Origin: an uncultured bacterium
GTDB taxonomy: Bacteria; Patescibacteriota; Minisyncoccia; Phycocordibacterales; GWA1-40-21
DNA length: 64,000 bases
Direction of reading: 5' to 3'
Assembly: GCA_963716205.1 (NCBI GenBank)
Contig: OY970290.1
Span: 239,417 to 303,416 of the forward strand
Position numbers and translations under genes: made by a program
The notes under the pieces: model-generated
What the model saw: only the letters and a program-made list of their open reading frames with translations
Database searches by the model: none
Told to the model about the DNA's origin: nothing
Shown: in pieces, positions 3,569 through 25,575 of the stretch
Position numbering within the stretch: the stretch's first letter is position 1
Layout: every line of letters begins with the position of its first letter

Positions 3569-3663
3569 ATCCACACAACTTGTCGTTCTCGATAATTTTC
3601 TACCCCTTGGCAAAATATTTTTCAGGAGTAGGATTTATACTGAGACGAATATTTAGGCAACGA

Positions 3664-10107: not shown

Positions 10108-10880
10108 ACAAAATTCCTTTTGGCGGAAATTACCTTATTGAACGGAAAATCCTGGCTTCGCTTGGAGAGGAAAGACGAAAACAAATCACCAGTGAGATTG
10201 AGCAAAAACGAGAACAAAAGAAATTCACCAAGCCGCCGGAAGTCGAACATATTCCCAAACCTGCTGAAGAACCAAAGCAAGAACCGAAATATGAACCTGT
10301 CCGAGAAAAGACGGGAAAGAAAGAACGGGTATCAGACCTGCCTGTCGAGACTAGTCCGGCACAGACGGAAGAAAAAGGCACGTCACGCCATCAATATCTT
10401 CAAAGTCTCATTAAACGTATGGCCGAGGAAAAGGGATACAAAGCGACCGTCGAGGAATCAATTCCCGATGGTCGGGTTGATGTCGGTCTTCTAAAGAATG
10501 GGAAGAAAATTGCCTGTGAGATTTCCGTGACCAATGCCCCCGATAATGAATTAGGAAATATCGAAAAGTGTCTCAAGGCAGGATACGACAAAGTGCTCAT
10601 GTGTGCCCAGGACAAGAAACATTTGGAAAAGATACGGACCTTGGTTATGGAAAAGCTAACCGACTCCGCTCTTGAAAAAGTAATGTTTGTTGAACCCGAA
10701 GAACTTTTCTTTTATCTGGAAGAAGAAGCGGCCAAGGATTCAGGAAAGGAACAACGGGTTAAAGGCTATAAGGTAAAGGTGAATTACCAACCCTTAAACC
10801 AGGACGACAAGAAAAGGAAACGCGAGGCCGTGGCCCAGGTCATCCTCGGAGCTTTCAAAAGGTTGAAGGGGAAGGATTAG
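10071..10880 (+). CDS. hypothetical protein; C-terminal region weakly PD-(D/E)xK-like (GRVDVGLL...ACEIS)
   Basis: 269-aa ORF with a K/E/P-rich linker then a conserved-looking C-terminal domain. No firm assignment. Confidence 0.45.
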   Translation: MDVGEDEFRNYIDKIPFGGNYLIERKILASLGEERRKQITSEIEQKREQKKFTKPPEVEHIPKPAEEPKQEPKYEPVREKTGKKERVSDLPVETSPAQTEEKGTSRHQYLQSLIKRMAEEKGYKATVEESIPDGRVDVGLLKNGKKIACEISVTNAPDNELGNIEKCLKAGYDKVLMCAQDKKHLEKIRTLVMEKLTDSALEKVMFVEPEELFFYLEEEAAKDSGKEQRVKGYKVKVNYQPLNQDDKKRKREAVAQVILGAFKRLKGKD

Positions 10881-10965
10881 GATTTGGCCGTTTAAGACCT
10901 CGGCAGACTTTTTTAAAATAAAGTTGTGTTAAAATGAATTGCATAAAGATTAAAAGAAGAATCCA

Positions 10966-11568
10966 ATGAAAGATATAAAGTCAGAATCCATTTTAGTAAT
11001 GAAAATCGGCTACCATGGAGCCGAAGATATTGACACTATTATTGCGAGAAAAAAAGAAGAAGAAAAAAAATGCGGTCAAACCTATTGGGGTTATGGCGGG
11101 GTATTATGCCACCCAATCCGAGTTGTCCAAAATTTTGCATCGCAAGTCGGAACGAAAAAAATCAAAGTTCTTTTCAGTGTTACCAAATCCCCATTCCAAT
11201 CTGATCCGACGCGAGCAAAATATTTTTCCGAGGACGGAAAAACATGGTCACCATTACATGACAGCGCCAATGTTCTGGCATCAAAATTTGCAATAGTTCT
11301 TCGTTCTCTCAAAGCATGTAAAAAGACAATAGTTCTTAACGATTATTGTGTCCCAATAGGTCCTTCAAAGGGGCGTCCCCTTAACGAATATCTAAGATTT
11401 CGTGTTGATAAAGCGGTCGGAACATTATCGAACAAAAAGAACCTGGGTCCCCTTAAGAGTCTTCCGATCCAGTTTGAGGCTGATTTGGTCCCGCCTTACG
11501 CCATCTTGGTGAGTCACCAGCATCAACCTGAGTCCCATCATCCATCACAAATTTCCCTTCCTTATTGA
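10966..11568 (+). CDS. hypothetical protein
   Basis: 200-aa ORF whose 3' end overlaps the convergent recombinase fusion by 116 nt. Confidence 0.4.
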   Translation: MKDIKSESILVMKIGYHGAEDIDTIIARKKEEEKKCGQTYWGYGGVLCHPIRVVQNFASQVGTKKIKVLFSVTKSPFQSDPTRAKYFSEDGKTWSPLHDSANVLASKFAIVLRSLKACKKTIVLNDYCVPIGPSKGRPLNEYLRFRVDKAVGTLSNKKNLGPLKSLPIQFEADLVPPYAILVSHQHQPESHHPSQISLPY

Positions 11569-13984: not shown

Positions 13985-14038
13985 TCAAACTTTTTGGTGA
14001 ATATGAATAGGATTAAATTGTATACGATTGTATACCTG

Positions 14039-14374
14039 CTAAGCCGTATCCTCAAGATCAAATATAGTATCGGCACTAAACGGTTTCGACGTATTTCCGT
14101 CGATCATCAGTTTGAGATATATGCCATACGCGGGAAGGTTCACGATATCACTTTGCCGGAAGACCGGCCAGAATTCATCAGAGAGCATCTTGGCATCTTC
14201 CGTTCCCACCCTAAACGAGATCATGGTTCCCACATTTCCCAAGATGGCCCTTCGAATATGTTCATCGACTTGATGAAGGTATTGGTTGACGAGGATCAGG
14301 TTCAAGCGGTATTTGCGCGCCTCTGAAAGAATATCTATAAACCCGGAAGTGGTGAAGCTTTGAAACTCGTCCAC
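14039..14374 (-). pseudogene. C-terminal fragment of a VirD4/TraG-type conjugative coupling protein
   Basis: Residues ...YVDEFQSF..EARKYRLNLILVNQYLHQV..AILGNVGTMISFRVGTEDAKMLSDEF match the C-terminal region of T4SS coupling ATPases (ILVNQ). The frame stays open upstream of the annotated Met, but no N-terminal ATPase or TM part is present. Confidence 0.5.
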
Positions 14375-14447
14375 ATAAAGATAGAAGTCCCGTCGTTTTT
14401 CTTCCGGTATCTATCATCCGCTCAAGGGAACATCCGCCGGAAATATC

Positions 14448-14879
14448 GTGGATACGCTCACCCAGTTCATCACCGGGAAAGGCTACAGCGTCCGCGTCGG
14501 CATGACCCCTTCTGAAGATATCTACGGCTATGTCAATGACAAGAAGGAGATCGTGCTCAAGGAGGGCGAGAGTTCCGACCATCAAGCTTTGGTTCTAGCT
14601 CATGAAATGTCGCACGCCCTTCTCGGTCATGTCGGTTCTTTCCAGAATCAAGCGGAGAAGGAACTTGAAGCCGAAACGTCTGCCTGGATCATTTGCCGCA
14701 ATCTCGGATTGCGGACTAATGAAACAAGTTTTGCTTACTTGGCAACATGGGCAAGCGGGCCGGAACAAGAAAAGAAGTTGGAAAAGGCCGCTTCTCGTGC
14801 CTGTCAGGTGGCGCAACTAATTTTGGAAGGTCTGGAAGCAATGAAGCAGATTTCCAGCCAGAAAGGAGAAATGGTATGA
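14448..14879 (+). CDS. HExxH metallopeptidase-like protein (ImmA/IrrE- or ArdC-C-terminal-like)
   Basis: LVLAHEMSHALLGH motif. GTG start. Its stop overlaps the next start (ATGA). Confidence 0.5.
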   Translation: MDTLTQFITGKGYSVRVGMTPSEDIYGYVNDKKEIVLKEGESSDHQALVLAHEMSHALLGHVGSFQNQAEKELEAETSAWIICRNLGLRTNETSFAYLATWASGPEQEKKLEKAASRACQVAQLILEGLEAMKQISSQKGEMV

Positions 14880-15145
14880 AAAAACTCGTCATCATCATCG
14901 ACGATGGAATGGTTGAGGACGTGCTCATCAGTTCCAAGGAACCGATGGACATTATGATCGTGGACTTTGACAAGAAGACCCTCGATCAATCGGCCTTGCA
15001 TGAACTGAGCGAACCGCACAACTTTGAAGACGTGGCCGCATTAGCCGATATCTACAAGTGGGATGCCTTCTACGATCCCAAACGGGTCAAGGAGGTCTTT
15101 GCAACACAAGAGCCGAAACACGCCTTTAATCCCAGCACTTCATAG
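14876..15145 (+). CDS. hypothetical protein
   Basis: 89-aa ORF with an SD (aggag) 9 nt upstream and translational coupling to the upstream gene. A strong terminator follows. Confidence 0.5.
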   Translation: MKKLVIIIDDGMVEDVLISSKEPMDIMIVDFDKKTLDQSALHELSEPHNFEDVAALADIYKWDAFYDPKRVKEVFATQEPKHAFNPSTS

Positions 15146-15164
15146 GAATTCCAATTCCTAGCAA

Positions 15165-15198
15165 AGCCCTATCGACAATCGATAGGGCTTTTTTTTTA
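15165..15198 (+). terminator. rho-independent terminator
   Basis: Hairpin agccctatcga-caa-tcgatagggct followed by ttttttttt. Confidence 0.8.
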
Positions 15199-15294
15199 CT
15201 TATCTCTGATTTTTTATTTTATAGAAATTCTGTTATAGTTAATCCGTAGTTGTGTCCGAGTTGGTTTGAAATCCCAAGTCAAGAAACTCCAAAT

Positions 15295-16317
15295 ATGAAA
15301 AATTATTTTTATTACAAAGATAAAAAAAAAGTCCTACCTGTTTTAGGTGAGGAAAAAAATAAACTGGCAAAAAAGAAACTCGACCACATTCTTAAGACCA
15401 AAAAGGAATTAATACCAGAACACTTTATCGAAAGGTGGTCAGAGGTGGCATTGTATAATCCTGGCGGTGATGTTGAAAAAGCAAATGCCATTTTGATCAA
15501 TCCGGAAGACGGCGCTTACGATCTATCGAACCCACTCAACGACATGACAGGAAAAGAATGGGTAAAGTTCAGTTGCAGTTGGTTTATTTTTAATGCTCTG
15601 CACAAAGACTTAAAGGAAGAGAGAGAAGTATCTCCAAATACTCAGGATCATCCAGCGACATTTTCTCCGACAATGATTGAGGGGTTTGTGAAATTCTTTA
15701 CAAAAAAGGGAGAAAACGTACTCGATCCTTTTTGCGGCATTGGAAGCACTATGGTTGCCTGCAAACGAACCGGAAGAGTCGGCTATGGTATTGAGCTTAA
15801 TAAAAAATATTATGATCTGTCGCTCAAGCGAACTCCGGAATTCAAAAAGACCATATTCAACGAAAATGCGGCCAATATCAAAAAACTGAATCTGCCAAAG
15901 ATTGCTTTTTCGATTTCATCGCCTCCGTACTGGGACATGCTTAACCGAAGTACCAAAGACTTCAAAAAGGATAGAACGAAAGACGGTTTCGATGTTAACT
16001 ATTCCGAAGCCGAAGAGGACTTGGGTAATATTGATAACTACGATCTGTTTTTGGAAAAATTAGCAAATATATATTTTGACATATTTGATCTACTCAAAGC
16101 CGGAGGGTATCTCGTGGTCATTGTGAAGAACCTTAAGAAAGAGGGTAAAATGTATCCATTGGCGTGGGACTTGGCTCGGCTTCTCTCGAAGAAGTATATG
16201 CTCAAAGATGAGAAGCTTTGGATACAAGACAAAGTCGGTCTTGCCCCCTACGGATACCCTTCAGCGTGGGCAAGCAACATACTGCATCATTACTGTTTAG
16301 TTTTTCAAAAGAAATAA
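15295..16317 (+). CDS. DNA methyltransferase (N4-cytosine/N6-adenine family, SPPY motif IV)
   Basis: Motif X/I HPATFSP..VLDPFCGIGST is followed by motif IV SISSPPYW. It overlaps or abuts the next MTase. Confidence 0.8.
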   Translation: MKNYFYYKDKKKVLPVLGEEKNKLAKKKLDHILKTKKELIPEHFIERWSEVALYNPGGDVEKANAILINPEDGAYDLSNPLNDMTGKEWVKFSCSWFIFNALHKDLKEEREVSPNTQDHPATFSPTMIEGFVKFFTKKGENVLDPFCGIGSTMVACKRTGRVGYGIELNKKYYDLSLKRTPEFKKTIFNENAANIKKLNLPKIAFSISSPPYWDMLNRSTKDFKKDRTKDGFDVNYSEAEEDLGNIDNYDLFLEKLANIYFDIFDLLKAGGYLVVIVKNLKKEGKMYPLAWDLARLLSKKYMLKDEKLWIQDKVGLAPYGYPSAWASNILHHYCLVFQKK

Positions 16318-16318
16318 C

Positions 16319-17947
16319 ATGTCTTTAACCATTTCACAAATTGTAAAAAACCTTGTCGATGTAAACGATATCAAACACGATCGGCAGTATTCGCGCGTGG
16401 CGAAACTTCATAAATATTGGTCAAGAAAACCTTGGTTTGTTATCGATCAATACATTGAGAAATATTCCAAAAAGGATCACGTCGTTTTGGACCCGTTTTG
16501 TGGTAGCGGAATTATTGGACTGCAATCAGTTTTAGCCAATAGAAATTTCATCGGTTACGACCTGAATCCTTTCGCTGTCTTTCTCGCAAAGAACTCTTTG
16601 CAGGTCGGTTATGACAACGCCTCTTTTGAAGAGGACTTCTCAGCGATTGAGCGGGCTGTTCGGGAGGAAATAATGCCTCTCTATGCGACCAAAGACAAAT
16701 ATATTCTGTATACCATTCTTGGAAAGAAAAATAGTAAGGACTATAACGCTGTCATCGCTGACAGTAATTTCCACAACAAGCAAAAAGTTAGTCTCTCTCA
16801 AGAATATCTAAATCCAATCATAAAATTTCCTAAGAACTTGAAGTATCCAGACAAGGACTTTCCAGAGAAATTTTATAAAGATCGTTTTTCTTATAAGGGT
16901 GTGAAGCGAGTGTCAGACATGTTCACCAAGAGGAACCTTCTTGCTTTGGCAACACTTCATATGGCTATCAACAAATTGCCTCTAAAAAACAGAGATTTGT
17001 TCATGCTTGCATTTACGAACACCCTATTGCATGTAAGTAAATTAAAAGCAGAAAATGTGCGGCCTCTTGGTGTAAATAACTTTTGGATTCCGGATGATTT
17101 TATTGAAGAGAATGTCTGGTGGAGGTTTGTAGACCGAGTCAATAATGTAAAAATGGCAAAGGAAGTTATTGCAGACAAGGCTTCCCGAAACGAGGTCTCG
17201 AAGCCTGTCTCTAAGATTTATAACAAGTCGTCTTTGAAGATGATTGAAATTAAGCCGGGTAGTGTTGACTATTTGATTACCGATCCTCCATACGGCGACA
17301 CCATCCAATACTCAGAGCTTTCATACATCTGGAATTGCTGGCTTGAGAAAGAGTTTGAGATTGAGAATGAAGTCATTATAAACCCTGTGCAAAAAAAGGG
17401 AGTGAACGAATACTACGATCAGCTCGCTACTTTTATCCGCGAAGCGAAAAGGGTTCTCAAAAAAGACGCTTACTTTACACTTGCATTCCACAACAAGGAT
17501 TTGAAAATTTGGATTAGCCTTGCCGAATTAATAAGAGATCATGGAATGGAATTGGTAGACATCTCTTCCTACGACACCTTCGGCAGTCCTTACAATAAAA
17601 ATTGGGCAAAATTTTCGCCCAAATCTGACTTCTATGTGACCTTTATAAATTCGAAAAATAAAGCAAGGGTTAAAAATAAAAAAGTTATCTATCCCAATGA
17701 TATTGCAGATGAGATCGTCAAATGCCTTGGCAAAAACAATGGCAAACTTTTTAATCTGAATAAGGCGTATGATCTGTTCGTAAGCGTAGTTATAAGTAAA
17801 ATATTTGATGGGTCGCAAGTCATTGAACACGAACGACTAAGTATTGAGAACATTATGAATCTTTTTCAGAACGTTCCACGAGATGAGAAGCATGGTAAGA
17901 AAAAGGAAACTGTTCAGATAAGTTTATTTGAACTACAACATGTTTAA
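16319..17947 (+). CDS. DNA methyltransferase (N6-adenine type, DPPY motif IV)
   Basis: N-terminal HKYWSRKP..VLDPFCGSGIIG (motif X/I) and LITDPPYGD (motif IV). 542 aa. Confidence 0.8.
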   Translation: MSLTISQIVKNLVDVNDIKHDRQYSRVAKLHKYWSRKPWFVIDQYIEKYSKKDHVVLDPFCGSGIIGLQSVLANRNFIGYDLNPFAVFLAKNSLQVGYDNASFEEDFSAIERAVREEIMPLYATKDKYILYTILGKKNSKDYNAVIADSNFHNKQKVSLSQEYLNPIIKFPKNLKYPDKDFPEKFYKDRFSYKGVKRVSDMFTKRNLLALATLHMAINKLPLKNRDLFMLAFTNTLLHVSKLKAENVRPLGVNNFWIPDDFIEENVWWRFVDRVNNVKMAKEVIADKASRNEVSKPVSKIYNKSSLKMIEIKPGSVDYLITDPPYGDTIQYSELSYIWNCWLEKEFEIENEVIINPVQKKGVNEYYDQLATFIREAKRVLKKDAYFTLAFHNKDLKIWISLAELIRDHGMELVDISSYDTFGSPYNKNWAKFSPKSDFYVTFINSKNKARVKNKKVIYPNDIADEIVKCLGKNNGKLFNLNKAYDLFVSVVISKIFDGSQVIEHERLSIENIMNLFQNVPRDEKHGKKKETVQISLFELQHV

Positions 17948-19034
17948 TCATATGGAAATATACAAAAAAGATTTTTTTAACATATTCAAAGCCAACTTTG
18001 ATTTCAAGATTGTTGAAACTGAAATGGGGCTGGCAGTCAAAATGCCCGCAAAGGAAGCTTTTATTTACAGCAGTATTACCGGTGCCGGGTACTTTGAAAA
18101 TCCAATCTATCCTTTTACCCCAAAAGGTCTGATGAAGCTTTTCTATAATGCATTCACCTATAAGTTCGTATCAGGTATTTTTGATAACGGTGTCCTCAAA
18201 AATACGCCGTACATTCTGTCGAAAGCAAAGAAGTATTTGTTTGAGGGCGATAAATATGTTGTCCCTATTGAATTTGAATCAGAAGAAAAATTGATCAATC
18301 TGCTCAAGGAAAAGTTTGATCATATTAAAAACCCAGAAAATTACATTATTCAGCGCATTGAGACAAGCAAGCAAGGCAACGGAATGGAACCATTCATGGA
18401 ATACCTTGCAGGCGAGTCTTTCCGACATCTTGGCTTCATTGTAGAGAATCAAATACCTCTTGCCCATGCAGTCGGCTCTCCGGATTTTGCTGGGTACGGT
18501 TTAAGTGACCTCATAATCAAGATAAGCGATTACGGATACCTATCAAGCGCCGGTTTTCACATGATTGAGTTGGCTCTCATTAGAAACTTTAAACAAGGGC
18601 CAAAGAACGAGAGTCACCATGTCACTCACGACTTTATTGTCGGTGAAGCAAAGACTGGGAGTCTGATCATGACCAAACAGTTGGAAAAATATCTCAATAC
18701 CGGACTATTTGATCAGGGATTTGAGATTCACCCTGCAAAGGCCAAGCCCTCAAAAGATTACTTCGGTTTGATCAGTTTGGATTCTGATTTCAAAATAAAA
18801 ATCACTCTCCCTGTAACTAAGCATACGGCGGAGAATCCGCTGTCACGGGAAGAGTATGCGATATGGCTTGGTAACTACATTAAGTTTTATCTAATTTCAA
18901 ATTTCACAAACGATGAGCTTAAGCAATTTTACATTGAACAGGAAGGTGAAGAGATAAATAAAGAGTCTGATCTTGTTAGTTTCGTCTTGGGGTTGGAGAC
19001 TGAAACAATTCTAGCAAAAATTAAATCCCTATAA
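17928..19034 (+). CDS. hypothetical protein, candidate PD-(D/E)xK nuclease (possible restriction component)
   Basis: 368 aa. E..SPDFAGYG...IVGEAKTG resembles the E/PD/ExK triad. It overlaps the MTase stop by 20 nt. Confidence 0.5.
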   Translation: MNYNMFNHMEIYKKDFFNIFKANFDFKIVETEMGLAVKMPAKEAFIYSSITGAGYFENPIYPFTPKGLMKLFYNAFTYKFVSGIFDNGVLKNTPYILSKAKKYLFEGDKYVVPIEFESEEKLINLLKEKFDHIKNPENYIIQRIETSKQGNGMEPFMEYLAGESFRHLGFIVENQIPLAHAVGSPDFAGYGLSDLIIKISDYGYLSSAGFHMIELALIRNFKQGPKNESHHVTHDFIVGEAKTGSLIMTKQLEKYLNTGLFDQGFEIHPAKAKPSKDYFGLISLDSDFKIKITLPVTKHTAENPLSREEYAIWLGNYIKFYLISNFTNDELKQFYIEQEGEEINKESDLVSFVLGLETETILAKIKSL

Positions 19035-19035
19035 T

Positions 19036-20049
19036 ATGGCATACTCCAGCGACGAAATTATTAAAAGAGAGATTCTAGATACCCTTGGTTATGAAACCAA
19101 TGGGATTAAACTTCGCATCTTTCCACAAAGCAGTAACGAAGATCAAAAGCCATTTTCAGAGGGCGGTCTTACTTTTGGGTTTAAAGGTGTTTCTTATGGT
19201 TCGTGTGATGCCGCATGGTATGTGGACGAAAAATGGGTAGACGGATTGAATGGCAAAGAAATAAACAAAAAGCCAGTGATTGCACTCGAAGGTACTGATG
19301 CTTTAAGTAGGAACTCGGCAGGCAATGCTCTCTATCAGCGATTTCATCATGCACTCGGTGGGGTAAAAAACGGCATCATTGGTGTTTATTATTTGAAAAA
19401 AGGCACTCAAAAAATCCAGCCAGACCTCTACGGCATGGCCTACTTTGCATCTAAGGTGGAAAAAGGAAAATATCTAATCACAGATGATCTCTCCGTCGTT
19501 AAGGATTTGCTGGATCGCTATCACAAACCCGCAGAATTTTCTGCTTACGTCAAAGCTTATTTGGAAAAGATGCACAAGATTTTTATAACTAAATTCAATG
19601 CCGCCTATGGTGGAGATTGGAAAAGGTTTGCAGAGCATCGATCGACAATCATACAAAACGACTACGTTATTAAATATGCTGGCCGAATGAGAAGAAATTT
19701 CACTGACGGATCACAGCGTGCAGGGCATATTGCTGTCGGTGAGATGTTTCTTACCAAATACTATTTTTACGATAAAATGTTTTACTATCTTTTTCCGAAA
19801 ATGACACATAATGATTTGGAGGTTCTTGATCACAATAAAACCACGGACAAAGAGTGGTTCCTTTTGCGAAATGAGCCTAACGTTGAAATAAAGACTATGG
19901 ACGATATTGCCGGACTTAGTCAGTCAACCCGAGAAGCGCTTTTGAGTATCCAAGATACCCCTCTCAAGGGAGAGGCTATGCGCACTTTTAATAAATGCAT
20001 GAAAACCATTGTCGAGGGATTTAAGTCTGGCAAGTTGAAGCTGAAATAA
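19036..20049 (+). CDS. hypothetical protein (operon partner)
   Basis: 337-aa ORF tightly packed between neighbours. No motif is recognised. Confidence 0.5.
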   Translation: MAYSSDEIIKREILDTLGYETNGIKLRIFPQSSNEDQKPFSEGGLTFGFKGVSYGSCDAAWYVDEKWVDGLNGKEINKKPVIALEGTDALSRNSAGNALYQRFHHALGGVKNGIIGVYYLKKGTQKIQPDLYGMAYFASKVEKGKYLITDDLSVVKDLLDRYHKPAEFSAYVKAYLEKMHKIFITKFNAAYGGDWKRFAEHRSTIIQNDYVIKYAGRMRRNFTDGSQRAGHIAVGEMFLTKYYFYDKMFYYLFPKMTHNDLEVLDHNKTTDKEWFLLRNEPNVEIKTMDDIAGLSQSTREALLSIQDTPLKGEAMRTFNKCMKTIVEGFKSGKLKLK

Positions 20050-20072
20050 TTGTAAAGTTAGTACGAAATCCT

Positions 20073-22451
20073 ATGAAAATTCGTAAAATCAAATCGATAA
20101 AGAACTACAAATCATTTACGGATTTTGAGTGGCAAAAGTTTTGCAAGAATAAAGATGGCCAAGAATCCATACTACAAAATTTTACTACTATTTTTGGCGA
20201 GAACGGATCAGGAAAATCTTCCGTCTGTGATATTTTAAAAAGCGTTTCTCAGTATCAGGACTTTCAAAATACTCCACCGGCTTTGACCGAAATAGAGCTG
20301 AATGATGGTAGTAATAATCAAATTCATAAATATGAAAACGGGGGATGGCTAACCCAAGTCGAGAAAAATTCGTTTCTATTTTTCGATGTTGATTTTATCA
20401 ATGCGAATGTTCATACACATGGTATTAGGTCAAGTAATCAGCAACAAGGCGCGCACACACAAAAAGCGGGTAAGCTAATAATTGATTTAGATGAACAGGC
20501 GAACAGTCTCAAAGAGATAGTTAAGACAAACCAAGACGCATTGGAAACACAAAAGATTATTAGCAAAGATATCTTAGGACAATCATTTACAGATAAAGAT
20601 AAAGAACTTTTCGAAATATATAAGGATGATGATGAAAAAACAAAACAAGAAAAACTTTCCAAAGCAGAAGAAGAACTAAAAACACTTGAAGAGGGATTAA
20701 CAAACCTTGAAAAGGTTAATAAAAAGTATAACGAAATAAATCTCATATCGGCAGTTGATCAAATAGCATTTTCTAATGATTTTTCTTCAAAAGAATTTTT
20801 CACTGAATTGTTTACCCGTCAAATAAAAGAAAAGGCACAAGATGATGCAGACGAGAAGATAAAAACGCATTTTGCAAAGCACAAACAGTTTATTGAGTCC
20901 GCCAAAGACCAAATACCCGAAAAATACAGCGACGAAAACTGTCCCCTTTGTATGCAACCGCTCAAAAACGCTATAAAAGTTATTGAGTACTACAGAACCG
21001 TCTTTGATCAAACCTATGAAAATGCTAAACAAAAATTTTTGGCCGACATTGAAACCGCAAAAAGCGAATTGGAAATAATAAAGTCAAACCTGAATTTATT
21101 GCCCTCTAAGGCAAATGAAGTATTTGACGCACTGGAAAAAATAAAAACAGATTTTGAAATCAAAGACATTTACAAGCTTGATGAAAAAACAAAATATACT
21201 GAAAAGTTTAGTGGTATTACCATAAAAGAAATTGATGATTCGCTCATGGCGTTAGAATCTCTGAAAAAAATTGAACGAAAGCAAGTGGAAATAGCAAATC
21301 TCTATGACGTGATCGCCGCAAAGCTTGTAAAAATCGTAAAATCAGTTGAGGGCATCAACGAACTTATTGCCGAAAAAAATAAATTGATAAGTGATTTCAA
21401 AAGTAAATATTCTGATCAAACCAAAATCACGGATGAACTACAGGAGAAAAATAAAAAGCAAATAGACTTGAACCAGTTAGTAGATTTTTTGAAAAGCGAA
21501 AAAATAAAACTCATAAAACTTCAAAACGATGCTTCTGCCAAAGAGAAAACATTATCGGAAAAATTGAAAAAGACACAGGAGGATTTGAAAACATATCTTG
21601 CCAAAACAATTCCAGAGAGTGTTATTTCACAAATGATAATTATTCTTAATAAGTTTAATTTGGGCTTCACCCTTGAACATATCAAACCCGCAGCCAATAC
21701 AAAGGAATATTCTTTTTCGTTCAAAATTACTGATCTAAAAGGAAATGAACGAGAAATGAAGGATGGATTATCAGAAGGTGAGAGACAGCTAATTTCTCTT
21801 GCCTTCTTCTTTGCGATTAATGAAAATTTGCAGAGCAAGGATCAAACCGTCTTAATTTTTGATGATCCGATAACAAGCTTAGACTCGCCAAACTTAAAAA
21901 TTCTTGCAGAGTTGATACACAAGGAGACTCAGGAATTTTCTCAGGTTATAGTTTTTACTCACCATCCACTATTTTTTAAGTATTTAGCAAAATGTGTAAA
22001 TCCAAATCCAAGCAAGTTTGGCGTTTTAAAGAATGTAGAAAAATTCGGTGGAAGTTTTATCTTTGTTGACCCTGGATTTGATTTGACCTCTGAAATCCAA
22101 AAATGCAATCAAGAAATTACTCAAAATGCCAAAAACGGTGATCTAAAACCAGAGGAAATTGCCTTAAAATATGGACAACTTTTACGATTGGCAGTTGAAA
22201 AATTTATCAAAAATGACTTACTGATGTGGGATAAGGAAAATAACTTTGATGGCATAACAGAAAATTTGAAACAAGGAAAAAATAAAATAGCTAAACTTTC
22301 CGATGACGATTTGGAAGTGATAACAAATATGTATAAATATTGTAATTACTCCAATCTCTTACACGCTGATAAGGAAACACCTTCCGCACTTTCTGAACTA
22401 ATGACACACATTGATAAATTTGATCAAATCTTGGATAAAGTGAAGGTTTAA
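20073..22451 (+). CDS. Rad50/RloC-like ABC-type ATPase with coiled coil and CxxC hook; putative abortive-infection/anticodon-nuclease-type defence protein
   Basis: Walker A FGENGSGKSS and about 450 aa of predicted coiled coil containing DENCPLCMQPL. The ABC signature is LSEGERQLISLAFFFA, Walker B is VLIFDDPITSLD, and the H-loop is VIVFTHH. A roughly 110-aa C-terminal domain follows. Confidence 0.65.
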   Translation: MKIRKIKSIKNYKSFTDFEWQKFCKNKDGQESILQNFTTIFGENGSGKSSVCDILKSVSQYQDFQNTPPALTEIELNDGSNNQIHKYENGGWLTQVEKNSFLFFDVDFINANVHTHGIRSSNQQQGAHTQKAGKLIIDLDEQANSLKEIVKTNQDALETQKIISKDILGQSFTDKDKELFEIYKDDDEKTKQEKLSKAEEELKTLEEGLTNLEKVNKKYNEINLISAVDQIAFSNDFSSKEFFTELFTRQIKEKAQDDADEKIKTHFAKHKQFIESAKDQIPEKYSDENCPLCMQPLKNAIKVIEYYRTVFDQTYENAKQKFLADIETAKSELEIIKSNLNLLPSKANEVFDALEKIKTDFEIKDIYKLDEKTKYTEKFSGITIKEIDDSLMALESLKKIERKQVEIANLYDVIAAKLVKIVKSVEGINELIAEKNKLISDFKSKYSDQTKITDELQEKNKKQIDLNQLVDFLKSEKIKLIKLQNDASAKEKTLSEKLKKTQEDLKTYLAKTIPESVISQMIIILNKFNLGFTLEHIKPAANTKEYSFSFKITDLKGNEREMKDGLSEGERQLISLAFFFAINENLQSKDQTVLIFDDPITSLDSPNLKILAELIHKETQEFSQVIVFTHHPLFFKYLAKCVNPNPSKFGVLKNVEKFGGSFIFVDPGFDLTSEIQKCNQEITQNAKNGDLKPEEIALKYGQLLRLAVEKFIKNDLLMWDKENNFDGITENLKQGKNKIAKLSDDDLEVITNMYKYCNYSNLLHADKETPSALSELMTHIDKFDQILDKVKV

Positions 22452-22496
22452 TAATGGCCTTAGACTGTCACACTTTTGGAGCGGCGTTTACACATC

Positions 22497-22800
22497 AAGC
22501 AACCGATTTTTCTTTTTCAGGAAAGTCAGGTATGTTTAAAGAGACGTGAAATTCCCAGAATTCCCTAAGACTTTTGAAAATTAGGTTCCAATTCTGTAAG
22601 GTGTGGTCCACTCTGGTGAACATTGGAGGCAGAAATGCCTCTTTTGTCTTTTAAAGATTAGCTATCTTGATGGTTTAAAGAAAAAATTTTTCTAAAAAAC
22701 AGACGGCTCTAATTATGGATAGAAATTAATGACCCAAGGCGACTCGAACCGATAACGAAAGTTAGCTGTATTTTGTTTCTTTCGTTCATACCAGACCTCC
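22497..22800 (+). repeat. composite repeat copy C (left arm ccgatttttctttttcaggaaa..gtgaaattcc, M1 22584-22611, hairpin M2 22626-22656, inverted T-arm-like M3 about 22704-22790)
   Basis: About 80% identical to copy D over about 280 bp. M2 and the flank also match the sequence downstream of tRNA-Ala(TGC). Confidence 0.8.
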
Positions 22801-22855
22801 CATCATTGACAAATCCCTACTAAATGTAATCATTCCTTTATTAATAAAACTAATC

Positions 22856-23881
22856 ATGGAAGGAAAAACTCATTTTGAAAATATTGTAGGTGGAACACAA
22901 GAAGAGAAAAATGAGATTTTGTATGAATTACAAAAGACTTTTGAAACTCGTTCAGAAAAGCTTACAAAATATGAACTAGAAAAAACTATAGAAGATATAG
23001 GGCTTATTAAAAATACGGAATTGGTTGTAGATAAAATTGTGAGTCAATATGGAGGCAAACCGAAATCAATATCACTTGATCATATATATATCCTCAAGCC
23101 GGGGTCGGTGCTCGAAATGACCGAGGGAAAATTAGCAAGGGGTCTTCACCAGCCAGTAGGGCTTAATATTGGTGTTGAGAAGAAAGAATCAAAATTATTA
23201 TTTGCAAGTACTATTGCACATGAACTTTTTCATCTGAAATCTTACAAATCTGCACGTAAAGGAGAATCGGTTGATGACATAAGATTATACAGAACTGGAC
23301 TTTCAATGATTGACATCAAGGATGAGTCAAAAAAGGCTGGCGAAGAAAAAGAATATTTTTCTCAACTAGAGGAAGCTGTTGTGGTTGAATGCACTAGAAA
23401 ATTTCTTGATAACATCAGTATGGATAAGGAATTTAGACCAGAAACAGAGGCAATTAAAAAAATCAAAAATTGGGTTACTGAATTTTATAAAAGACGAGGA
23501 ATATCTCAAGATAAAATAGAAGAATTTAATGATGAGATAAAATATATATCAGATCCAGAGAAGTGGGTTTCGGACGTAGAAAATGCATACACTGAAGAAA
23601 ATAGAAAGCAGGCATATGCAGCAGGAATGTTTGAGTCACTTTATAAAAATGGTTCCGCAGAATCTATGGAAAGATATACAGAAAGAAAAAAACTATATGA
23701 TCTTCTTGATAAATTAGTTTTAGAATCCAATAGAAAATATAAAAATCGTAATGAATTATTTGACGAGTTTGCAAAAGCAAATTTTTCTGGTAATTATCTG
23801 CCGTTGGCGAAAATAATTGAGAGTATTTTAGGAAAAGGGTCATTCAGAAAAATAGCAGAAGATTTTAGTAATAAATCTTAA
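22856..23881 (+). CDS. hypothetical HExxH-motif protein (putative metallopeptidase)
   Basis: 341 aa with IAHELFH and no signal peptide. A cassette-like ORF between repeats C and D. Confidence 0.5.
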   Translation: MEGKTHFENIVGGTQEEKNEILYELQKTFETRSEKLTKYELEKTIEDIGLIKNTELVVDKIVSQYGGKPKSISLDHIYILKPGSVLEMTEGKLARGLHQPVGLNIGVEKKESKLLFASTIAHELFHLKSYKSARKGESVDDIRLYRTGLSMIDIKDESKKAGEEKEYFSQLEEAVVVECTRKFLDNISMDKEFRPETEAIKKIKNWVTEFYKRRGISQDKIEEFNDEIKYISDPEKWVSDVENAYTEENRKQAYAAGMFESLYKNGSAESMERYTERKKLYDLLDKLVLESNRKYKNRNELFDEFAKANFSGNYLPLAKIIESILGKGSFRKIAEDFSNKS

Positions 23882-23892
23882 AACATAATGAT

Positions 23893-24170
23893 TAAGCAGC
23901 CGATTTTTCTTTTTCAGGAAAATCTGGTATGTCTACAGAATCGTGAAATTCCTGGAATGCCTTGATGCTCTCGTATATTTGATTCCAATTTCGTAAGATG
24001 AGGTCCACCCAAGCTGACAAAAGAGGCAGAAATGCCTCTTTTGTCTTGTAAGGGCTAGCTATCTTGGTATTTCCAAAATAATTTTTCTCTAAATATCCAA
24101 CGGCTCTAATTATGGATATAGATTAATGACCCTACACGACTCGAACCAATTTTGATAATTTTTTAGACAG
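23893..24170 (+). repeat. composite repeat copy D (left arm, M1 23981-24008, hairpin M2 24023-24053, M3 about 24101-24165)
   Basis: See copy C. M1 is gattccaatttcgtaagatgaggtccac. Confidence 0.8.
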
Positions 24171-24236
24171 TGTTACGCTATAGGAACAGATGTTATTTTT
24201 AGTTTTGGTATGAATCAGTATTAATTAAATAATAAA

Positions 24237-25283
24237 ATGTTCAATTTTTTACATAAAATTATATCAGCCATAGGTACTGCGATTGTTTCCGTAGGATTGC
24301 TTTTCACTGGGACGCACATATCAACCAAAATTCCTAATACACCTCTCGTAAGTACTTCCACTTCCCAAGTTGAAGTTGTAAGCACAAGCACAATAGTAAA
24401 TACAGGTTCTATAACTAAACCTTCTCCAGTTCAAACACCAACAATTGTGCAACCTCTAATCGTCTCTTGCAGTGCAGATATGGCAAATGCTTCTCCCGGA
24501 CAAACTATTATATGGACTGCACAAACATCAGGAGGTAATGGTAGTCATTCTTATACTTGGGCAGGGGATGGCGGTTTATCTAGTACCAATCAATCGCCAA
24601 CTATTTCCTGGTCATATAATTCTACGGGGATTATGAATGCGAGAGTGAGTGTGACTTCTGGAACACAAACAGTGAATGCTAACTGTAAAAATTCTGTTAT
24701 AGTCACTCAAGTAGAATCAGCACAAAACAATAATCAGAATCAAGTCCAAGCTCAAACAAATTCTCAAGAACAAGCTATCCAAAGTGTTATCACTGCTTAT
24801 ACACAAAAAGAAGGATCTATTCAGCAAGAAATTGATGATGTGCAAGGTCAAATGCAAGAATCACAAAATAATAATTGTTCTAATAATATTGGAGAAGGTG
24901 AGGGCGCACTTGAATGCACTGCAAGTGCTGAAGAGATAACAGCCAATGAAAGTTATGTTAGTAATTTACAGACACAAAATGGAATTTTACAAAAAGTTCA
25001 AGTAGAATTACAAAATGATATTTCCCAGGAGGTATCTCTGACTCAAGATCAGATTGATTCATATATGCAAAATATAACTATTCTTGGTCAAATTGATACA
25101 CTTGAACAACAAATCACTGCATTAAAAATAAAAAGTATCGGTGAGATAATGGGATATGAAACAAGTGGAGGTACAGAAGCTGTTGCTGAAGGTGAAGCAA
25201 ATTTGATAACGACACAAGAAAATGCACAGATTGATTCATTAAATTCACAGATTCAGGTTTTAGCTGCTGAACTGGTTCAATAA
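24237..25283 (+). CDS. hypothetical secreted/membrane-anchored protein with a PKD-like beta domain and a Q/N-rich coiled-coil tail
   Basis: N-terminal TM or signal segment, a Cys-bounded beta domain (CSADMANASPGQTIIWTAQTSGG...NC), and a glutamine-rich C-terminus. Confidence 0.5.
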   Translation: MFNFLHKIISAIGTAIVSVGLLFTGTHISTKIPNTPLVSTSTSQVEVVSTSTIVNTGSITKPSPVQTPTIVQPLIVSCSADMANASPGQTIIWTAQTSGGNGSHSYTWAGDGGLSSTNQSPTISWSYNSTGIMNARVSVTSGTQTVNANCKNSVIVTQVESAQNNNQNQVQAQTNSQEQAIQSVITAYTQKEGSIQQEIDDVQGQMQESQNNNCSNNIGEGEGALECTASAEEITANESYVSNLQTQNGILQKVQVELQNDISQEVSLTQDQIDSYMQNITILGQIDTLEQQITALKIKSIGEIMGYETSGGTEAVAEGEANLITTQENAQIDSLNSQIQVLAAELVQ

Positions 25284-25319
25284 AAATTGGCTCAAGAAGC
25301 TAGTTAATCTTCAAGGGAA

Positions 25320-25390
25320 CTATGAAATTCCCAGAACGCCTCTAGGCTTTCGTATATTGGGTTCCAATTCCGTATAATGAGGTCCACCAA
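25320..25390 (+). repeat. partial composite repeat copy E (gaaattcccagaa... plus M1 ggttccaattccgtataatgaggtccac)
   Basis: Matches the left arm and M1 of copies C and D but lacks M2 and M3. It lies 80 bp upstream of tRNA-Ala(CGC). Confidence 0.65.
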
Positions 25391-25466
25391 CGACGATGAA
25401 TTTTGTAAGACAAGGTCCACACAGAGTTTTTTATTTTATCGGAATATGTTAGAGTAGCAAACGCCT

Positions 25467-25537
25467 GGGCCTATAGTATAGTGGTAGCACGCGTCATTCG
25501 CATTGACGAGACGGCAGTCCGATTCTGCCTAGGTCCA
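25467..25537 (+). tRNA. tRNA-Ala (anticodon CGC)
   Basis: Acceptor gggccta/taggtcc with G3:U70, anticodon loop ttcgcat. The T-loop is tccgatt, with C at position 55. Confidence 0.7.
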
Positions 25538-25575
25538 CAAAAGCAGAAAATCTAAACTGCTTGATAAATAAATTT

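What the first reader, a model, noticed from the sequence alone, without database searches (positions are those of the whole stretch)
22497..25390. A cassette-like array: each accessory ORF is followed by a roughly 300-bp composite repeat carrying a tRNA-Ala 3'-end-like core
Three consecutive same-strand ORFs end at 22451, 23881, and 25283. Each is followed within about 50 bp by a repeat. Copies C and D are about 80% identical over about 280 bp. Copy E is partial.

Each repeat contains:
- a conserved left arm;
- an M1 core ggttccaatt..gta.g.tgaggtccac, whose 3' part mimics the ..ggtccac(c) ends of all three tRNA-Ala genes here;
- a hairpin M2 gaggcagaaatgcctc-ttttgtctt;
- an inverted tRNA T-arm-like fragment (cgactcgaacc on the + strand, i.e. 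ggttcgagtcg on the minus strand).

M2 plus about 60 bp of flank is also found directly downstream of the genuine tRNA-Ala(TGC) at 1318-1440.

The simplest reading is iterated att sites from serial integration of small elements at a tRNA-Ala hot spot. An alternative is an attC-like cassette system serviced by the serine recombinases, i.e. a non-canonical integron-like array. Either way the structure is not explained by ordinary gene annotation.
Basis: seen in the sequence. Interest (0 to 1): 0.85.

Follow-up and report, generated by a model that had tools for sequence, protein, structure and literature searches.

The report
Stacked serine-integrase scars at tRNA-Ala
The repeats are junction scars left where several mobile elements, inserted by serine integrases into the end of an alanine tRNA gene, piled up and then decayed; the pile-up is ordinary, but a serine integrase that targets a tRNA and carries the attachment site inside its own gene is unusual.

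Summary
GGTCCAC occurs nine times, all on the + strand: three tRNA-Ala 3' ends, five M1 repeats and one stub.

Each repeat is a junction between neighbouring integrated elements, read on the minus strand:
- The left arm plus core encodes the native C-terminal tail (VD-LILRNWNQIYESIKAF...) of a large serine recombinase (LSR).
- The right arm, including hairpin M2, is the last 30-40 codons of the next element's LSR gene. The rest of that gene is deleted.

Two LSR genes in the window run across GGTCCAC into tRNA-Ala genes. Of the 120 best database homologues (Patescibacteria), 66 end in antisense-tRNA peptide and about 30 in native tails collinear with the window's tails. So attP lies inside the integrase gene, and integration swaps its C-terminus.

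M2 is an antisense hairpin plus T-run, kept with five different stem sequences. It probably terminates the tRNA transcript.

The array 7,579-25,420 is one 15-kb element, two single-gene integrase-less units and a 33-bp stub. No tyrosine integrase or attC-like palindrome is present, so the integron reading fails. Whether the single-gene units are decay products (favoured) or trans-mobilised satellites is open. An inverted tRNA-Ala half-site in each unit is unexplained.

The parts
7505..7580 (+). tRNA-Ala(GGC), the target gene at the head of the large array. The GGTCCAC core is at 7572-7578.
   Evidence: ARAGORN, Rfam at 56 bits, core listing.
7516..9066 (-). Intact large serine recombinase of 516 aa. 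Its last 20 codons (VD|RTGIEPVTSSMPWKRSTK) are the antisense of tRNA-Ala(GGC). This is the integrated form with a swapped C-terminus.
   Evidence: Resolvase, Recombinase and Zn_ribbon_recom domains. Translation.
7579..22611 (.). A 15-kb integrated element. It carries the LSR, a cI-like HTH, a second LSR fused to a BpsA_C-like domain, TraG and ArdC-like fragments, two N6/N4 methylases, two unknown ORFs and an AAA_13 ATPase. It ends with tail C and its core.
   Evidence: Pfam scans. No GGTCCAC lies between 7572 and 22605.
22495..22611 (-). Tail C, the left arm of repeat C including M1. It is the displaced native C-terminal tail of the 15-kb element's LSR (VDHTLQNWNLIFKSLREFWEFHVSLNIPDFPEKEKSVA*). 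The core is at 22605-22611.
   Evidence: Minus-strand translation. Gap-free alignment with native tails of database LSRs. tblastn.
22612..22723 (-). Right arm of repeat C: relic of the last ~37 codons of an LSR-A-type gene (...TIKIANL*KTKEAFLPPMFTR), interrupted by stop codons.
   Evidence: tblastn against LSR C-termini, E 3e-7. 73% identical to 1297-1387.
22625..22649 (+). M2 in repeat C: hairpin GAGGCA-GAAA-TGCCTC followed by a T-run. It is terminator-like on the + strand and antisense to codons KTKEAFLP.
   Evidence: Terminator scan and folding.
22731..22750 (+). Inverted tRNA-Ala 3' half-site (GACCCAAGGCGACTCGAACC). It is the antisense of the T-arm and acceptor up to GGGTC, and it stops inside the core. 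Its role is unexplained.
   Evidence: 18/20 identity to the window's tRNA-Ala(TGC). 19/20 to the tRNA-Ala(GGC) of L016.
22856..23881 (+). Cargo ORF of 341 aa with an HExxH motif, no Pfam family, of the first integrase-less unit (22612-24008). A promoter-like TTGACA/-10 lies at 22806-22833.
   Evidence: It has 132 Patescibacteria homologues, and the contexts examined were ordinary chromosomal ones.
23892..24008 (-). Tail D (VDLILRNWNQIYESIKAFQEFHDSVDIPDFPEKEKSAA*). The core is at 24002-24008.
24009..24122 (-). Right arm of repeat D: open relic of the last 38 LSR codons (SISIIRAVGYLEKNYFGNTKIASPYKTKEAFLPLLSAW). It is in frame with tail D, so the junction is attP-like. M2 lies at 24016-24045.
   Evidence: 72% identity over 29 aa to the window's LSR-A, E 2e-10. 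45% over 49 aa across the VD junction to native-tailed P0067, E 3e-9. 13-bp perfect stem.
24128..24147 (+). Inverted tRNA-Ala 3' half-site, copy D.
24237..25283 (+). Cargo ORF of 348 aa (signal/TM segment, weak PKD domain, coiled-coil) of the second integrase-less unit (24009-25387).
25304..25387 (-). Tail E (VDLIIRNWNPIYESLEAFWEFHSSLED*). The core is at 25381-25387.
25388..25420 (.). 33-bp stub of a further element: 12 nt of right arm plus a truncated tail (VDLVLQN) and core E' at 25414-25420. Presumed native flank follows, then tRNA-Ala(CGC).
25467..25538 (+). Unoccupied tRNA-Ala(CGC) with the same GGTCCAC end at 25532-25538: an attB-like site.
1230..1304 (+). tRNA-Ala(TGC), head of the second, smaller array (1305-3754).
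1241..2563 (-). LSR-A: a large serine recombinase lacking its N-terminal ~75 aa, which include the catalytic serine. Its 3' end contains M2 (1316-1345) and runs into tRNA-Ala(TGC).
   Evidence: Translation. 99% identical to P0001, and 70-74% to full-length homologues. 30% identical to the 7516-9066 LSR.
2578..2679 (-). Tail B1 (VDLILQDWNHIFLYIKNFRNHFEKQEDELELAA*) with its core at 2673-2679, abutting the truncated LSR-A.
   Evidence: 85% identical to 3625-3754 (D5).
2680..3754 (.). Third integrase-less unit: inverted tRNA half-site at 2760-2779, ORF 2930-3529 (199 aa, no family), tail B2 at 3653-3754 and core at 3748-3754. A strong bidirectional terminator at 3773-3813 follows in the native flank.

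Best explanation
The array is the old, tRNA-distal part of a tandem stack of integrative elements at tRNA-Ala(GGC). A second, smaller stack sits at tRNA-Ala(TGC).

The elements belong to a large Patescibacteria family that integrates with a large serine recombinase (LSR). The crossover lies in GGTCCAC. In the tRNA these are nucleotides 68-74: the acceptor 3' strand including U70 of the G3:U70 alanine identity pair, then A73 and C74. In the element the same 7 nt are the codons Val-Asp near the 3' end of the LSR gene itself. attP therefore sits inside the integrase ORF.

Integration cuts off the last 27-38 codons (the 'tail', VD..(F/N)WN..). That tail ends up at the far end of the element, and the LSR is fused to about 20 codons of antisense tRNA.

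Where two elements abut, the junction reads: tail of the left element, core, 3' end of the right element's LSR. That junction is the 'repeat'. In units 22612-24008 and 24009-25387 the LSR body has been deleted, leaving 37-38 codons. In 25388-25420 almost everything is gone.

M2 is a hairpin plus T-run on the tRNA-sense strand, written antisense into LSR codons K(T/V)K(E/D)AF... Its most likely role is to supply a terminator for the tRNA whose native downstream flank the element displaced.

Shown here:
- the coding nature and homology of both arms;
- the ORF-spanning core;
- the tail swap across the family;
- hairpin maintenance;
- decay by deletion.

Inferred:
- that recombination occurs within the 7 nt;
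- terminator function of M2;
- how successive elements entered a site that is formally attL or attR;
- that the single-gene units are decay products.
For: Core and arms:
- GGTCCAC is found only in tRNA-Ala ends and repeats, 9 on the + strand and 0 on the - strand.
- Minus-strand translation of all five left arms gives open, related peptides starting VD. The two LSR genes read ...VD and then antisense tRNA.

Family-wide tail swap:
- There are 790 homologues. Of the best 120, 66 end in VD plus antisense tRNA-Ala peptide, 63 of them with the UGC anticodon signature. About 30 end in native tails VD....FWN.FA.E..YL..IL.
- The window tails align to those native tails without gaps over 27 columns.
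- Relic D aligns across the junction to native-tailed LSRs, with P0067 at 45% over 49 aa, E 3e-9.
- Native-tailed LSRs sit between element genes (TrwB/TraG, ArdC, RadC) with no tRNA nearby. tRNA-tailed ones abut tRNA-Ala(TGC).

M2:
- Five different stem sequences occur at the same place in eight LSR 3' ends. All are followed by a T-run, with z from -2.4 to -7.3.
- The terminator scan flags the M2 copies after tRNA-Ala(TGC) and in repeat C.

Decay:
- C has stop codons, LSR-A lacks its N-terminus, and E-E' is a 33-bp stub.
- All 9 metagenome loci matching core+M2 start at a tRNA-Ala, and six of them (five distinct sequences, L011 and L012 being the same) have a truncated or deleted LSR.

Half-site spacing:
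- GGTTC lies 21 nt before the core in the tails and 16 nt before it in the tRNAs. This is the 5-bp attP/attB shift of the zinc-ribbon motif described for serine integrases (PMC3783163).
Against: - Canonical serine integrases recombine only attP with attB. Stacking therefore requires integration into a hybrid site, and that was not shown.
- The three integrase-less units share conserved ends, including an inverted tRNA-Ala half-site not seen next to intact LSR genes, yet carry unrelated intact cargo genes. Independent decay does not predict this, and it hints at a common integrase-less ancestor.
- The intact LSR at 7516-9066 has no M2-like hairpin. The terminator idea therefore does not hold for every subfamily.
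- No full-length LSR with the exact NWN..IYESI tail type was recovered. The word-index search failed, and the profile-free search hit only helicase-associated repeat proteins.
- No empty site, circle or polymorphism was observed.
Confidence: 0.75

Rival explanations
1. The single-gene units (2680-3754, 22612-24008, 24009-25387) are integrase-less satellite 'cassettes'. Each would consist of conserved ends plus one expressed cargo gene, and would be excised and re-inserted in trans by resident large serine recombinases. That would be a serine-recombinase cassette array comparable to pseudo-SCC units or integron cassettes.
For: - Three units of similar size (1075, 1397 and 1379 bp) have the same layout: core, short right arm, inverted tRNA-Ala half-site, promoter-like region, one intact ORF, open tail, core.
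- C and D share the same right-arm end point despite unrelated cargo.
- Junction D is an uninterrupted attP-like reading frame.
- An intact LSR with the same tail type is present 15 kb away.
Against: - The right arm of C carries stop codons, and neighbouring units are plainly decaying.
- The Logan assembly of the same sample shows only the linear arrangement, with no circular or empty junction.
- Homologues of ORF341 in two other Patescibacteria contexts lie among housekeeping genes beside tRNA-Ser, without cores, tails or LSRs.
- Scans of viral and genome collections with the tail+core pattern gave no related copies, only chance-level hits.
- LSR truncation next to tRNA-Ala is common elsewhere.
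Confidence: 0.2
2. The repeats are ordinary intergenic elements, such as terminators or REP-like repeats, that spread by duplication or gene conversion and have nothing to do with site-specific recombination.
For: - M2 is a good terminator-like hairpin placed just after + strand ORFs.
- C and D lie 1397 bp apart and could homogenise each other.
Against: - Both arms are homologous at the protein level to the two ends of LSR genes.
- The 7-nt core is exactly where LSR ORFs meet tRNA-Ala in this window and in dozens of other genomes.
- The copies are mosaic, with arms reassorted at the core.
Confidence: 0.03
3. An integron-like array with attC-type sites recombined as folded single strands.
For: Same-strand ORFs, each followed by a repeat.
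Against: - No tyrosine recombinase domain in any ORF scanned: 40 ORFs, including every candidate gene of 187 aa or more except the Ddl-like ORF at 221-1189 and the 1665-aa repeat protein.
- The repeat does not fold as an end-to-end imperfect palindrome on either strand. Only the local M2 hairpin is stable.
- ORF341 has its own promoter-like site.
Confidence: 0.01

Closest known systems
Tandem arrays of genomic islands at tRNA genes (Islander/TIGER-type islands; tycheposon stacks in Prochlorococcus)
   Same: - Serial insertions at one tRNA gene push older elements outward.
- Each junction keeps a copy of the shared tRNA-derived core.
- Degenerate elements, fragmented integrases and extra partial sites accumulate (10.1101/2020.12.28.424599; PMC4383910).
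   Different: - Those arrays are overwhelmingly made by tyrosine integrases and duplicate tens of nucleotides of the tRNA.
- Here the enzyme is a large serine recombinase and only 7 nt are shared.
- Islander states serine integrases were not known to target tRNA genes.
- TIGER found 14 of 297 and called for proof (PMC7192596).
Staphylococcal SCC composite islands with pseudo-SCC units (CcrAB/CcrC large serine recombinases); stated from my own knowledge, not tested here
   Same: - A large serine recombinase integrates elements at the 3' end of a conserved housekeeping gene.
- Stacks of units are separated by short direct repeats.
- Some units lack a recombinase gene yet remain bounded by the same repeats.
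   Different: - The target is rlmH (orfX), not a tRNA.
- The att site is not inside the recombinase ORF.
- Relatedness of these LSRs to Ccr was not examined.
Integrases whose ORF spans attP: Myxococcus phage Mx8 IntP to IntX, and SSV-type archaeal integrases
   Same: - The attachment site lies within the integrase coding sequence.
- Integration therefore changes the C-terminus (Mx8) or splits the gene (SSV) (cited in PMC4383910; PMC7253208).
   Different: - Both are tyrosine recombinases.
- Here a serine recombinase loses 27-38 residues and gains about 20 residues of antisense-tRNA peptide.
Canonical phage serine integrases (A118/LI, Bxb1, phiC31)
   Same: - Domain set Resolvase + Recombinase + zinc ribbon.
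- Short core.
- A motif placed 5 bp further out in the attP-type arm than in the attB-type arm (PMC3783163).
   Different: - Those attB sites are in protein-coding genes or intergenic DNA, and attP lies beside the int gene, not inside it.
- Activity of the present enzymes is untested.

Membership tests
Large-serine-recombinase integrative element (attL/attR junctions) | A recombinase with Resolvase catalytic domain, Recombinase domain and zinc ribbon lies at one end of the element. | tested here: met
   ORF 7516-9066: PF00239 at 6e-31, PF07508 at 1e-12, PF13408 at 2e-6. LSR-A at 1241-2563 is 70-74% identical to full-length homologues carrying both domains.
Large-serine-recombinase integrative element (attL/attR junctions) | A short identical core is shared by the target site and both element junctions. 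| tested here: met
   GGTCCAC is present at three tRNA-Ala ends and at all six junctions, and nowhere else on either strand.
Large-serine-recombinase integrative element (attL/attR junctions) | attP-type and attB-type half-sites carry the same outer motif offset by about 5 bp. | tested here: inconclusive
   GGTTC starts 21 nt before the core in the tails and 16 nt before it in tRNA-Ala (read). This is consistent with PMC3783163. However, the motif is also forced by the Trp-Asn codons and by the T-arm, and no clear right half-site symmetry was found.
Large-serine-recombinase integrative element (attL/attR junctions) | Demonstrated integration or excision: attB restored, or a circular attP form. 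| not testable with these tools
   Only assembled contigs are available. The Logan contigs of the same run show the linear arrangement.
tRNA-gene genomic-island tandem array (Islander definition) | An intact tRNA gene at one end and a displaced tRNA fragment at each further junction. | tested here: met
   tRNA-Ala(GGC) at 7505-7580 is intact. Each junction repeats its last 7 nt. The fragment is much shorter than usual.
tRNA-gene genomic-island tandem array (Islander definition) | Each array member has its own integrase gene, of the tyrosine family. | tested here: not met
   Units 22612-24008, 24009-25387 and 2680-3754 have no integrase gene. No Phage_integrase domain was found in any ORF scanned.
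Integron | An IntI tyrosine recombinase with adjacent attI and Pc. | tested here: not met
   No tyrosine recombinase domain in any of the 40 ORFs scanned, which include every candidate gene of 187 aa or more except the Ddl-like ORF at 221-1189 and the 1665-aa repeat protein.
Integron | attC sites are imperfect palindromes that fold as single strands over their whole length. | tested here: not met
   DNA folds of 23891-24150 on both strands give only local hairpins, with centroid structures of M2 plus small stems and z of -3.0 and -2.5. The inverted-repeat search finds only M2 as a strong pair.
Integrase ORF spanning attP (Mx8 IntP / SSV type) | The crossover site lies inside the integrase coding sequence, so integration alters the protein. 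| tested here: met
   LSR ORFs read through GTGGAC into antisense tRNA. Native tails lie at the far junctions. 66 of 120 homologues are tRNA-tailed and about 30 are native-tailed.
Integrase ORF spanning attP (Mx8 IntP / SSV type) | Tyrosine recombinase chemistry. | tested here: not met
   The enzymes are serine recombinases.
SCC-type composite island | Ccr-family recombinase and rlmH target. | not tested
   The target here is tRNA-Ala. Similarity to Ccr proteins was not examined, and the resemblance is in architecture only.

The most novel reading that the evidence does not exclude
Patescibacteria may carry a serine-recombinase-based gene-cassette system. Integrase-less single-gene units, bounded by a tail-core-right-arm site and carrying an inverted tRNA-Ala half-site, would be captured and shuffled in trans at tRNA-Ala genes by resident LSRs. 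The swap of the LSR C-terminus on integration would act as a built-in switch between integration-competent and integrated forms.
Probability: 0.2. Interest if true: 0.75.

Novelty: new variant of a known kind. Interest (0 to 1): 0.5.

Why it matters
The array itself is an ordinary outcome of serial integration and decay, and it needs no new mechanism.

What lies behind it is less ordinary. A very large Patescibacteria family of large serine recombinases appears to target the universally conserved 3' acceptor end of tRNA-Ala. Their attP sits inside the recombinase gene, so every integration rewrites the enzyme's C-terminus.

Surveys held in the searchable literature state that serine integrases were not known to use tRNA genes (PMC4383910). 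They treat the few candidates as needing proof (PMC7192596).

Here the signature is visible directly in protein databases: 66 of the 120 best homologues end in antisense-tRNA peptide.

This has three consequences:
1. It points to a systematic annotation artefact, in which integrase ORFs overlap tRNA genes.
2. It offers many natural attP/attB pairs for a short, highly conserved target, which is relevant to integrase-based genome engineering.
3. It offers a testable case of tail-swap regulation and of an antisense-encoded replacement terminator.

Tried and rejected
Searches that led nowhere:
- **Viral contigs.** Scans with core+M2 and with tail+core patterns gave no matches.
- **Genome contigs.** The tail+core pattern gave five hits in unrelated phyla. 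That is about the number expected by chance for 18 specified bases, so it was uninformative.
- **Word-index protein search.** A 66-aa relic+tail query found no candidates.
- **Exhaustive phmmer with the 76-aa relic D.** It returned no LSRs, only proteins made of helicase-associated repeats that match the tail helix. I did not treat this as evidence about function.
- **Rfam.** At permissive thresholds over both arrays there was no tRNA relic or other family in the repeats. The only signal was a terminator at 3773-3813.

Ideas tested and not settled:
- **Distal motif as decayed LSR 'WFQFP' codons.** DNA local alignment to LSR-A is significant only up to about +86 for C and is weak beyond that for D. 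tblastn places the WFQFP-equivalent just left of the motif. The motif matches real tRNA-Ala ends at 18-19 of 20. I therefore kept the tRNA-derived reading, unexplained.
- **One positional structure for M2.** The stems sit in different registers in different homologues (pair sums 52, 55, 58 and 59 in alignment A2). Pair-count covariation on a single structure was therefore not appropriate, and per-sequence folding against shuffles was used instead.
- **Circular or alternative junctions.** Logan contigs of the source run showed only breaks at the repeated M2.
- **P0003 context.** No DNA was available for its 172-kb contig.


Full report
**1.

- The three + strand ORFs end at 22451, 23881 and 25283.
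- Repeat C (22494-22753) and repeat D (23891-24150) are 78% identical over 260 nt. Copy E shares only 25323-25388.
- The M1 consensus has four matches at up to 3 mismatches, against none in 100 shuffles. A fifth copy lies at 2652-2679.
- M2 and about 60 nt of flank recur immediately after tRNA-Ala(TGC), at 1297-1387.
- The heptamer GGTCCAC occurs nine times, always on the + strand: at the 3' ends of the three tRNA-Ala genes (1297, 7572, 25532), in five M1 copies (2673, 3748, 22605, 24002, 25381) and once more at 25414.

**2. The repeats are coding sequence on the other strand**

Read on the minus strand in the frame GTG-GAC, every left arm is an open peptide beginning Val-Asp:
- C: VDHTLQNWNLIFKSLREFWEFH...
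- D: VDLILRNWNQIYESIKAFQEFH...
- E: VDLIIRNWNPIYESLEAFWEFH...
- B1 and B2: VDLILQ(D/N)WN(H/Q)IFLYIKNF...

Upstream of VD, the right arms of D and C read ...EKNYFGNTKIASPYKTKEAFLPLLSAW and ...TIKIANL*KTKEAFLPPMFTR.

The same residues close the ORF at 1241-2563 (...ENNLFGTPEIASLYKTKEAFLPLKSAK-VD). That ORF is a large serine recombinase missing its first ~75 residues, and it continues into the antisense of tRNA-Ala(TGC).

A complete 516-aa enzyme with Resolvase, Recombinase and zinc-ribbon domains lies at 7516-9066. It likewise ends ...NPSAL-VD-RTGIEPVTSSMPWKRSTK, the last 20 residues being antisense tRNA-Ala(GGC). The two enzymes are 30% identical paralogues.

So M2 is the codons KTKEAFLPL. The core is the codons VD. 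The left arm is an alternative C-terminus.

**3. The family shows both states**

- A search with LSR-A gave 790 homologues, named where named at all as Nomurabacteria, Paceibacteria or Parcubacteria.
- Of the best 120, 66 end in VD followed by antisense tRNA peptide such as PSGLEPLTSSLQMRRSTR. Sixty-three of these carry the LQ/VQ signature of a UGC anticodon.
- About 30 end in a different, mutually related tail: VD(F/L)G.(Q/H)FWN.FA.E..YL..IL.
- The five window tails align with those native tails without a gap over 27 columns. They share the Trp-Asn at positions 8-9 and the hydrophobic periodicity after it.
- Relic D aligns collinearly across the VD junction with native-tailed proteins. P0067 gives 45% over 49 aa, E 3e-9, and P0028 behaves likewise.
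- Context fits. tRNA-tailed LSRs abut a tRNA-Ala(TGC) gene (L001, L019, L020). Native-tailed ones sit between element genes (TrwB/TraG-like, ArdC, RadC, HTH) with no tRNA nearby (L007, L008, L021).

The straightforward reading is that attP lies inside the 3' end of the LSR gene. Integration at the tRNA end then exchanges the last 27-38 residues for about 20 residues of antisense tRNA, and the displaced tail marks the far end of the element.

**4. Anatomy of the window under this reading**

*Array 1*
- tRNA-Ala(TGC) at 1230-1304.
- A decayed element at 1305-2679: N-truncated LSR-A fused directly to tail B1.
- An integrase-less unit at 2680-3754 with ORF 2930-3529 and tail B2.
- Native flank with a strong bidirectional terminator at 3773-3813.

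*Array 2*
- tRNA-Ala(GGC) at 7505-7580.
- A 15-kb element at 7579-22611. It carries the intact LSR, a cI-like HTH, a second LSR fused to a BpsA_C-like domain, TraG and ArdC-like fragments, two N6/N4 methylases and an AAA_13 ATPase. It ends in tail C.
- Unit 22612-24008 with ORF341 and tail D.
- Unit 24009-25387 with ORF348 and tail E.
- A 33-bp stub at 25388-25420, holding the first seven codons of yet another tail (VDLVLQN) and a last core.
- The unoccupied tRNA-Ala(CGC) and tRNA-Pro.

Each 'repeat' is thus a junction, not a unit. Its left arm belongs to the element on the left and its right arm to the element on the right. This explains why the arms reassort:
- A, C and D share M2.
- B1, C and D share the distal block.
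- B1 and B2 share one tail type, while C, D and E share another.

**5. Why GGTCCAC, and why M1 looks tRNA-like**

In tRNA-Ala the heptamer is positions 68-74: the 3' acceptor strand opposite GGGCC, with U70 of the G3:U70 alanine identity pair, then A73 and C74. This is established tRNA knowledge. It explains why all three isoacceptors in the window offer the same target.

Only these 7 nt are common to the tRNAs and the repeats. It starts 16 nt before the core in the tRNA (T-arm) and 21 nt before it in the tails (antisense of the Trp-Asn codons).

A 5-bp outward shift of the zinc-ribbon-domain motif in attP relative to attB is exactly what was described for serine integrases (PMC3783163). I regard this as suggestive only. 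I found no convincing mirror motif in the right arms beyond a conserved AG..GAC at +11 to +17.

**6. M2**

- On the tRNA-sense strand, M2 is a hairpin followed by TTTTG.
- Eight LSR 3' ends from the window and from L001, L007, L008, L019, L020 and L021 carry five different stem sequences at this place: GAGGCA/TGCCTC, GGATGC/GCATC, AAAGACGC/GCGTCTTT, GACTTCGC/GCGAGGTC and TCCGCA/TGCGGA.
- Each is followed by a T-run and folds better than shuffles, with z from -2.4 to -7.3.
- The protein sequence changes accordingly: KTKEAFLPL, KAKDAISAS, KVKDAFSAS, KVKDLALEA, KAKSAFLGA.
- The stems are in different registers. This is maintenance of 'a hairpin here', not of one structure.
- The simple scan calls the copies after tRNA-Ala(TGC) and in repeat C terminator-like.

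I infer that the element supplies a terminator for the tRNA whose native flank it displaces. In the inner junctions the same hairpin now sits just behind the + strand cargo ORFs. The LSR at 7516-9066 has no such hairpin, so the feature is subfamily-specific.

**7. Decay is common**

- A metagenome scan for core plus M2 returned nine loci. All began with a tRNA-Ala.
- Six of the nine loci (five distinct sequences, since L011 and L012 are the same sequence) have a truncated or deleted LSR. It is interrupted by a transposase-like gene in L010, cut to about 45 codons in L016 and L017, and reduced to M2 alone in L011/L012 and L014.
- Inside the window, C carries stop codons, LSR-A has lost its catalytic N-terminus and all cargo, and E-E' is a 33-bp remnant.

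**8. Cassettes or wreckage?**

*For satellites*
- The three integrase-less units are alike in size and layout.
- Each has one intact ORF. ORF341 has a 10/12 promoter match with an extended -10.
- Tails remain open.
- C and D end their shared right arm at the same point.
- All three carry the same odd block (section 9).

*Against satellites*
- The decay just described.
- The Logan assembly of the source run shows only the linear order, with contig breaks at the repeated M2 and no alternative junction.
- ORF341 has 132 Patescibacteria homologues. The two contexts examined lie among housekeeping genes beside tRNA-Ser, without cores, tails or LSRs.
- Pattern scans of viral and genome collections found no further copies.

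I put about 0.2 on trans-mobilised satellites.

**9. The unexplained piece**

On the + strand, GACCCnnnnCGACTCGAACC (2760, 22731, 24128) is the antisense of the last 20 nt of a tRNA-Ala. Identity is 18/20 to the window's tRNA-Ala(TGC) and 19/20 to the tRNA-Ala(GGC) of L016. It stops at GGGTC, inside the core.

In B1 the + strand even reads ...IGNDPSRLEPPTMKV, like the tRNA-encoded LSR tails. It looks like an inverted attB-type half-site, or the scar of an inverted LSR-tRNA junction.

It is not present beside the intact LSR genes I could inspect. I could not show what it does. A derivation from decayed LSR codons was considered and found weaker.

**10. Comparison with known systems**

- *Stacks of islands at tRNA genes.* Stacks with partial sites and broken integrases are well known for tyrosine integrases and in tycheposons.
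- *SCC composite islands.* From my own knowledge, these are the closest serine-recombinase analogue, including recombinase-less pseudo-SCC units.
- *ORF-spanning attP.* This is known for the tyrosine integrases of Mx8 and SSV viruses.
- *What is unusual here.* The combination of a serine integrase, a tRNA target, attP inside the gene and an antisense hairpin.
- *State of the literature.* The Islander paper states that serine integrases were not known to target tRNA genes. The TIGER survey found 14 of 297 and asked for experimental proof. Two recent papers on Patescibacteria gene exchange and conjugation machinery do not mention recombinases or tRNA targets.
- *Integron membership fails.* There is no tyrosine integrase in any ORF scanned and no attC-like fold.

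**11. Verdict**

The finding is confirmed as a structure. It is explained as junction scars of stacked, decaying serine-integrase elements at tRNA-Ala. That is a new variant of a known kind. Interest is moderate, and it lies in the integrase family rather than in the array.

Noticed in passing
window 33840-35831 (inside ORF 31822-36819): Seven head-to-tail 282-bp repeats, all 100% identical, lie inside a 1665-aa ORF. The neighbouring ORF is a glycine-rich protein. Perfect identity suggests very recent expansion or an assembly collapse or expansion.
   Followed up: no
window 11453-13984 (-): A third large serine recombinase of 843 aa has a C-terminal half that matches the BpsA_C (branched-chain polyamine synthase C-terminal) domain, E 2e-24. 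This is an unusual fusion. It sits inside the 15-kb element.
   Followed up: partly
window 23895-24008 (-) and 22498-22611 (-): The C/D-type tail (WNQIYESIKAFQEFHDSVDIP) matches the first helix of 'helicase-associated' repeat proteins (W..Y..LK.F...HG...VP). phmmer gives E 1e-14, summed over five repeats of P0121. Whether the LSR tail is a half HA-like module is unknown.
   Followed up: partly
window 2760-2779, 22731-22750, 24128-24147: Each integrase-less unit carries an inverted copy of the last 20 nt of a tRNA-Ala that stops inside the GGTCCAC core. The copy lies about 100 nt upstream of the cargo ORF. It was not seen next to intact LSR genes in 12 related loci.
   Followed up: partly
window 14039-14374 (-) and 14448-14879 (+): Fragments of a TraG/TraD-type coupling protein and of an ArdC/MPTase-like metallopeptidase are present. 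Relatives with native-tailed LSRs (L007, L008, L021) carry full TrwB/TraG, ArdC and RadC genes. The 15-kb element therefore looks like a decayed conjugative or mobilisable element now carrying methylases and an AAA_13 ATPase.
   Followed up: partly
database proteins P0002-P0120: 66 of the 120 best LSR homologues are annotated with a C-terminus that is the antisense translation of tRNA-Ala. Gene calls for this family therefore systematically overlap tRNA genes. In L007 the core is mutated (GTGCGC), suggesting an immobilised copy.
   Followed up: yes
L022 6060-6149; L023 5853-5940; L024 708-795: Homologues of cargo ORF341 (HExxH protein, no Pfam family) lie directly beside tRNA-Ser genes in other Patescibacteria, 7 nt downstream or 60 nt upstream.
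   Followed up: no
window 23902-23924 and 22505-22527: A small conserved hairpin (GATTTTTCT/AGGAAAATC) overlaps the last codons and stop of the C and D tails. No T-run follows on either strand.
   Followed up: no
L001, L019, L020 (upstream of the LSR): Full-size relatives of LSR-A share a module: Toprim primase, DUF5659, a MerR/HTH_17 excisionase-like gene (in L019 and L020 only), an N6_N4 methylase and a ResIII helicase. The HTH_17 protein is a candidate directionality factor.
   Followed up: no
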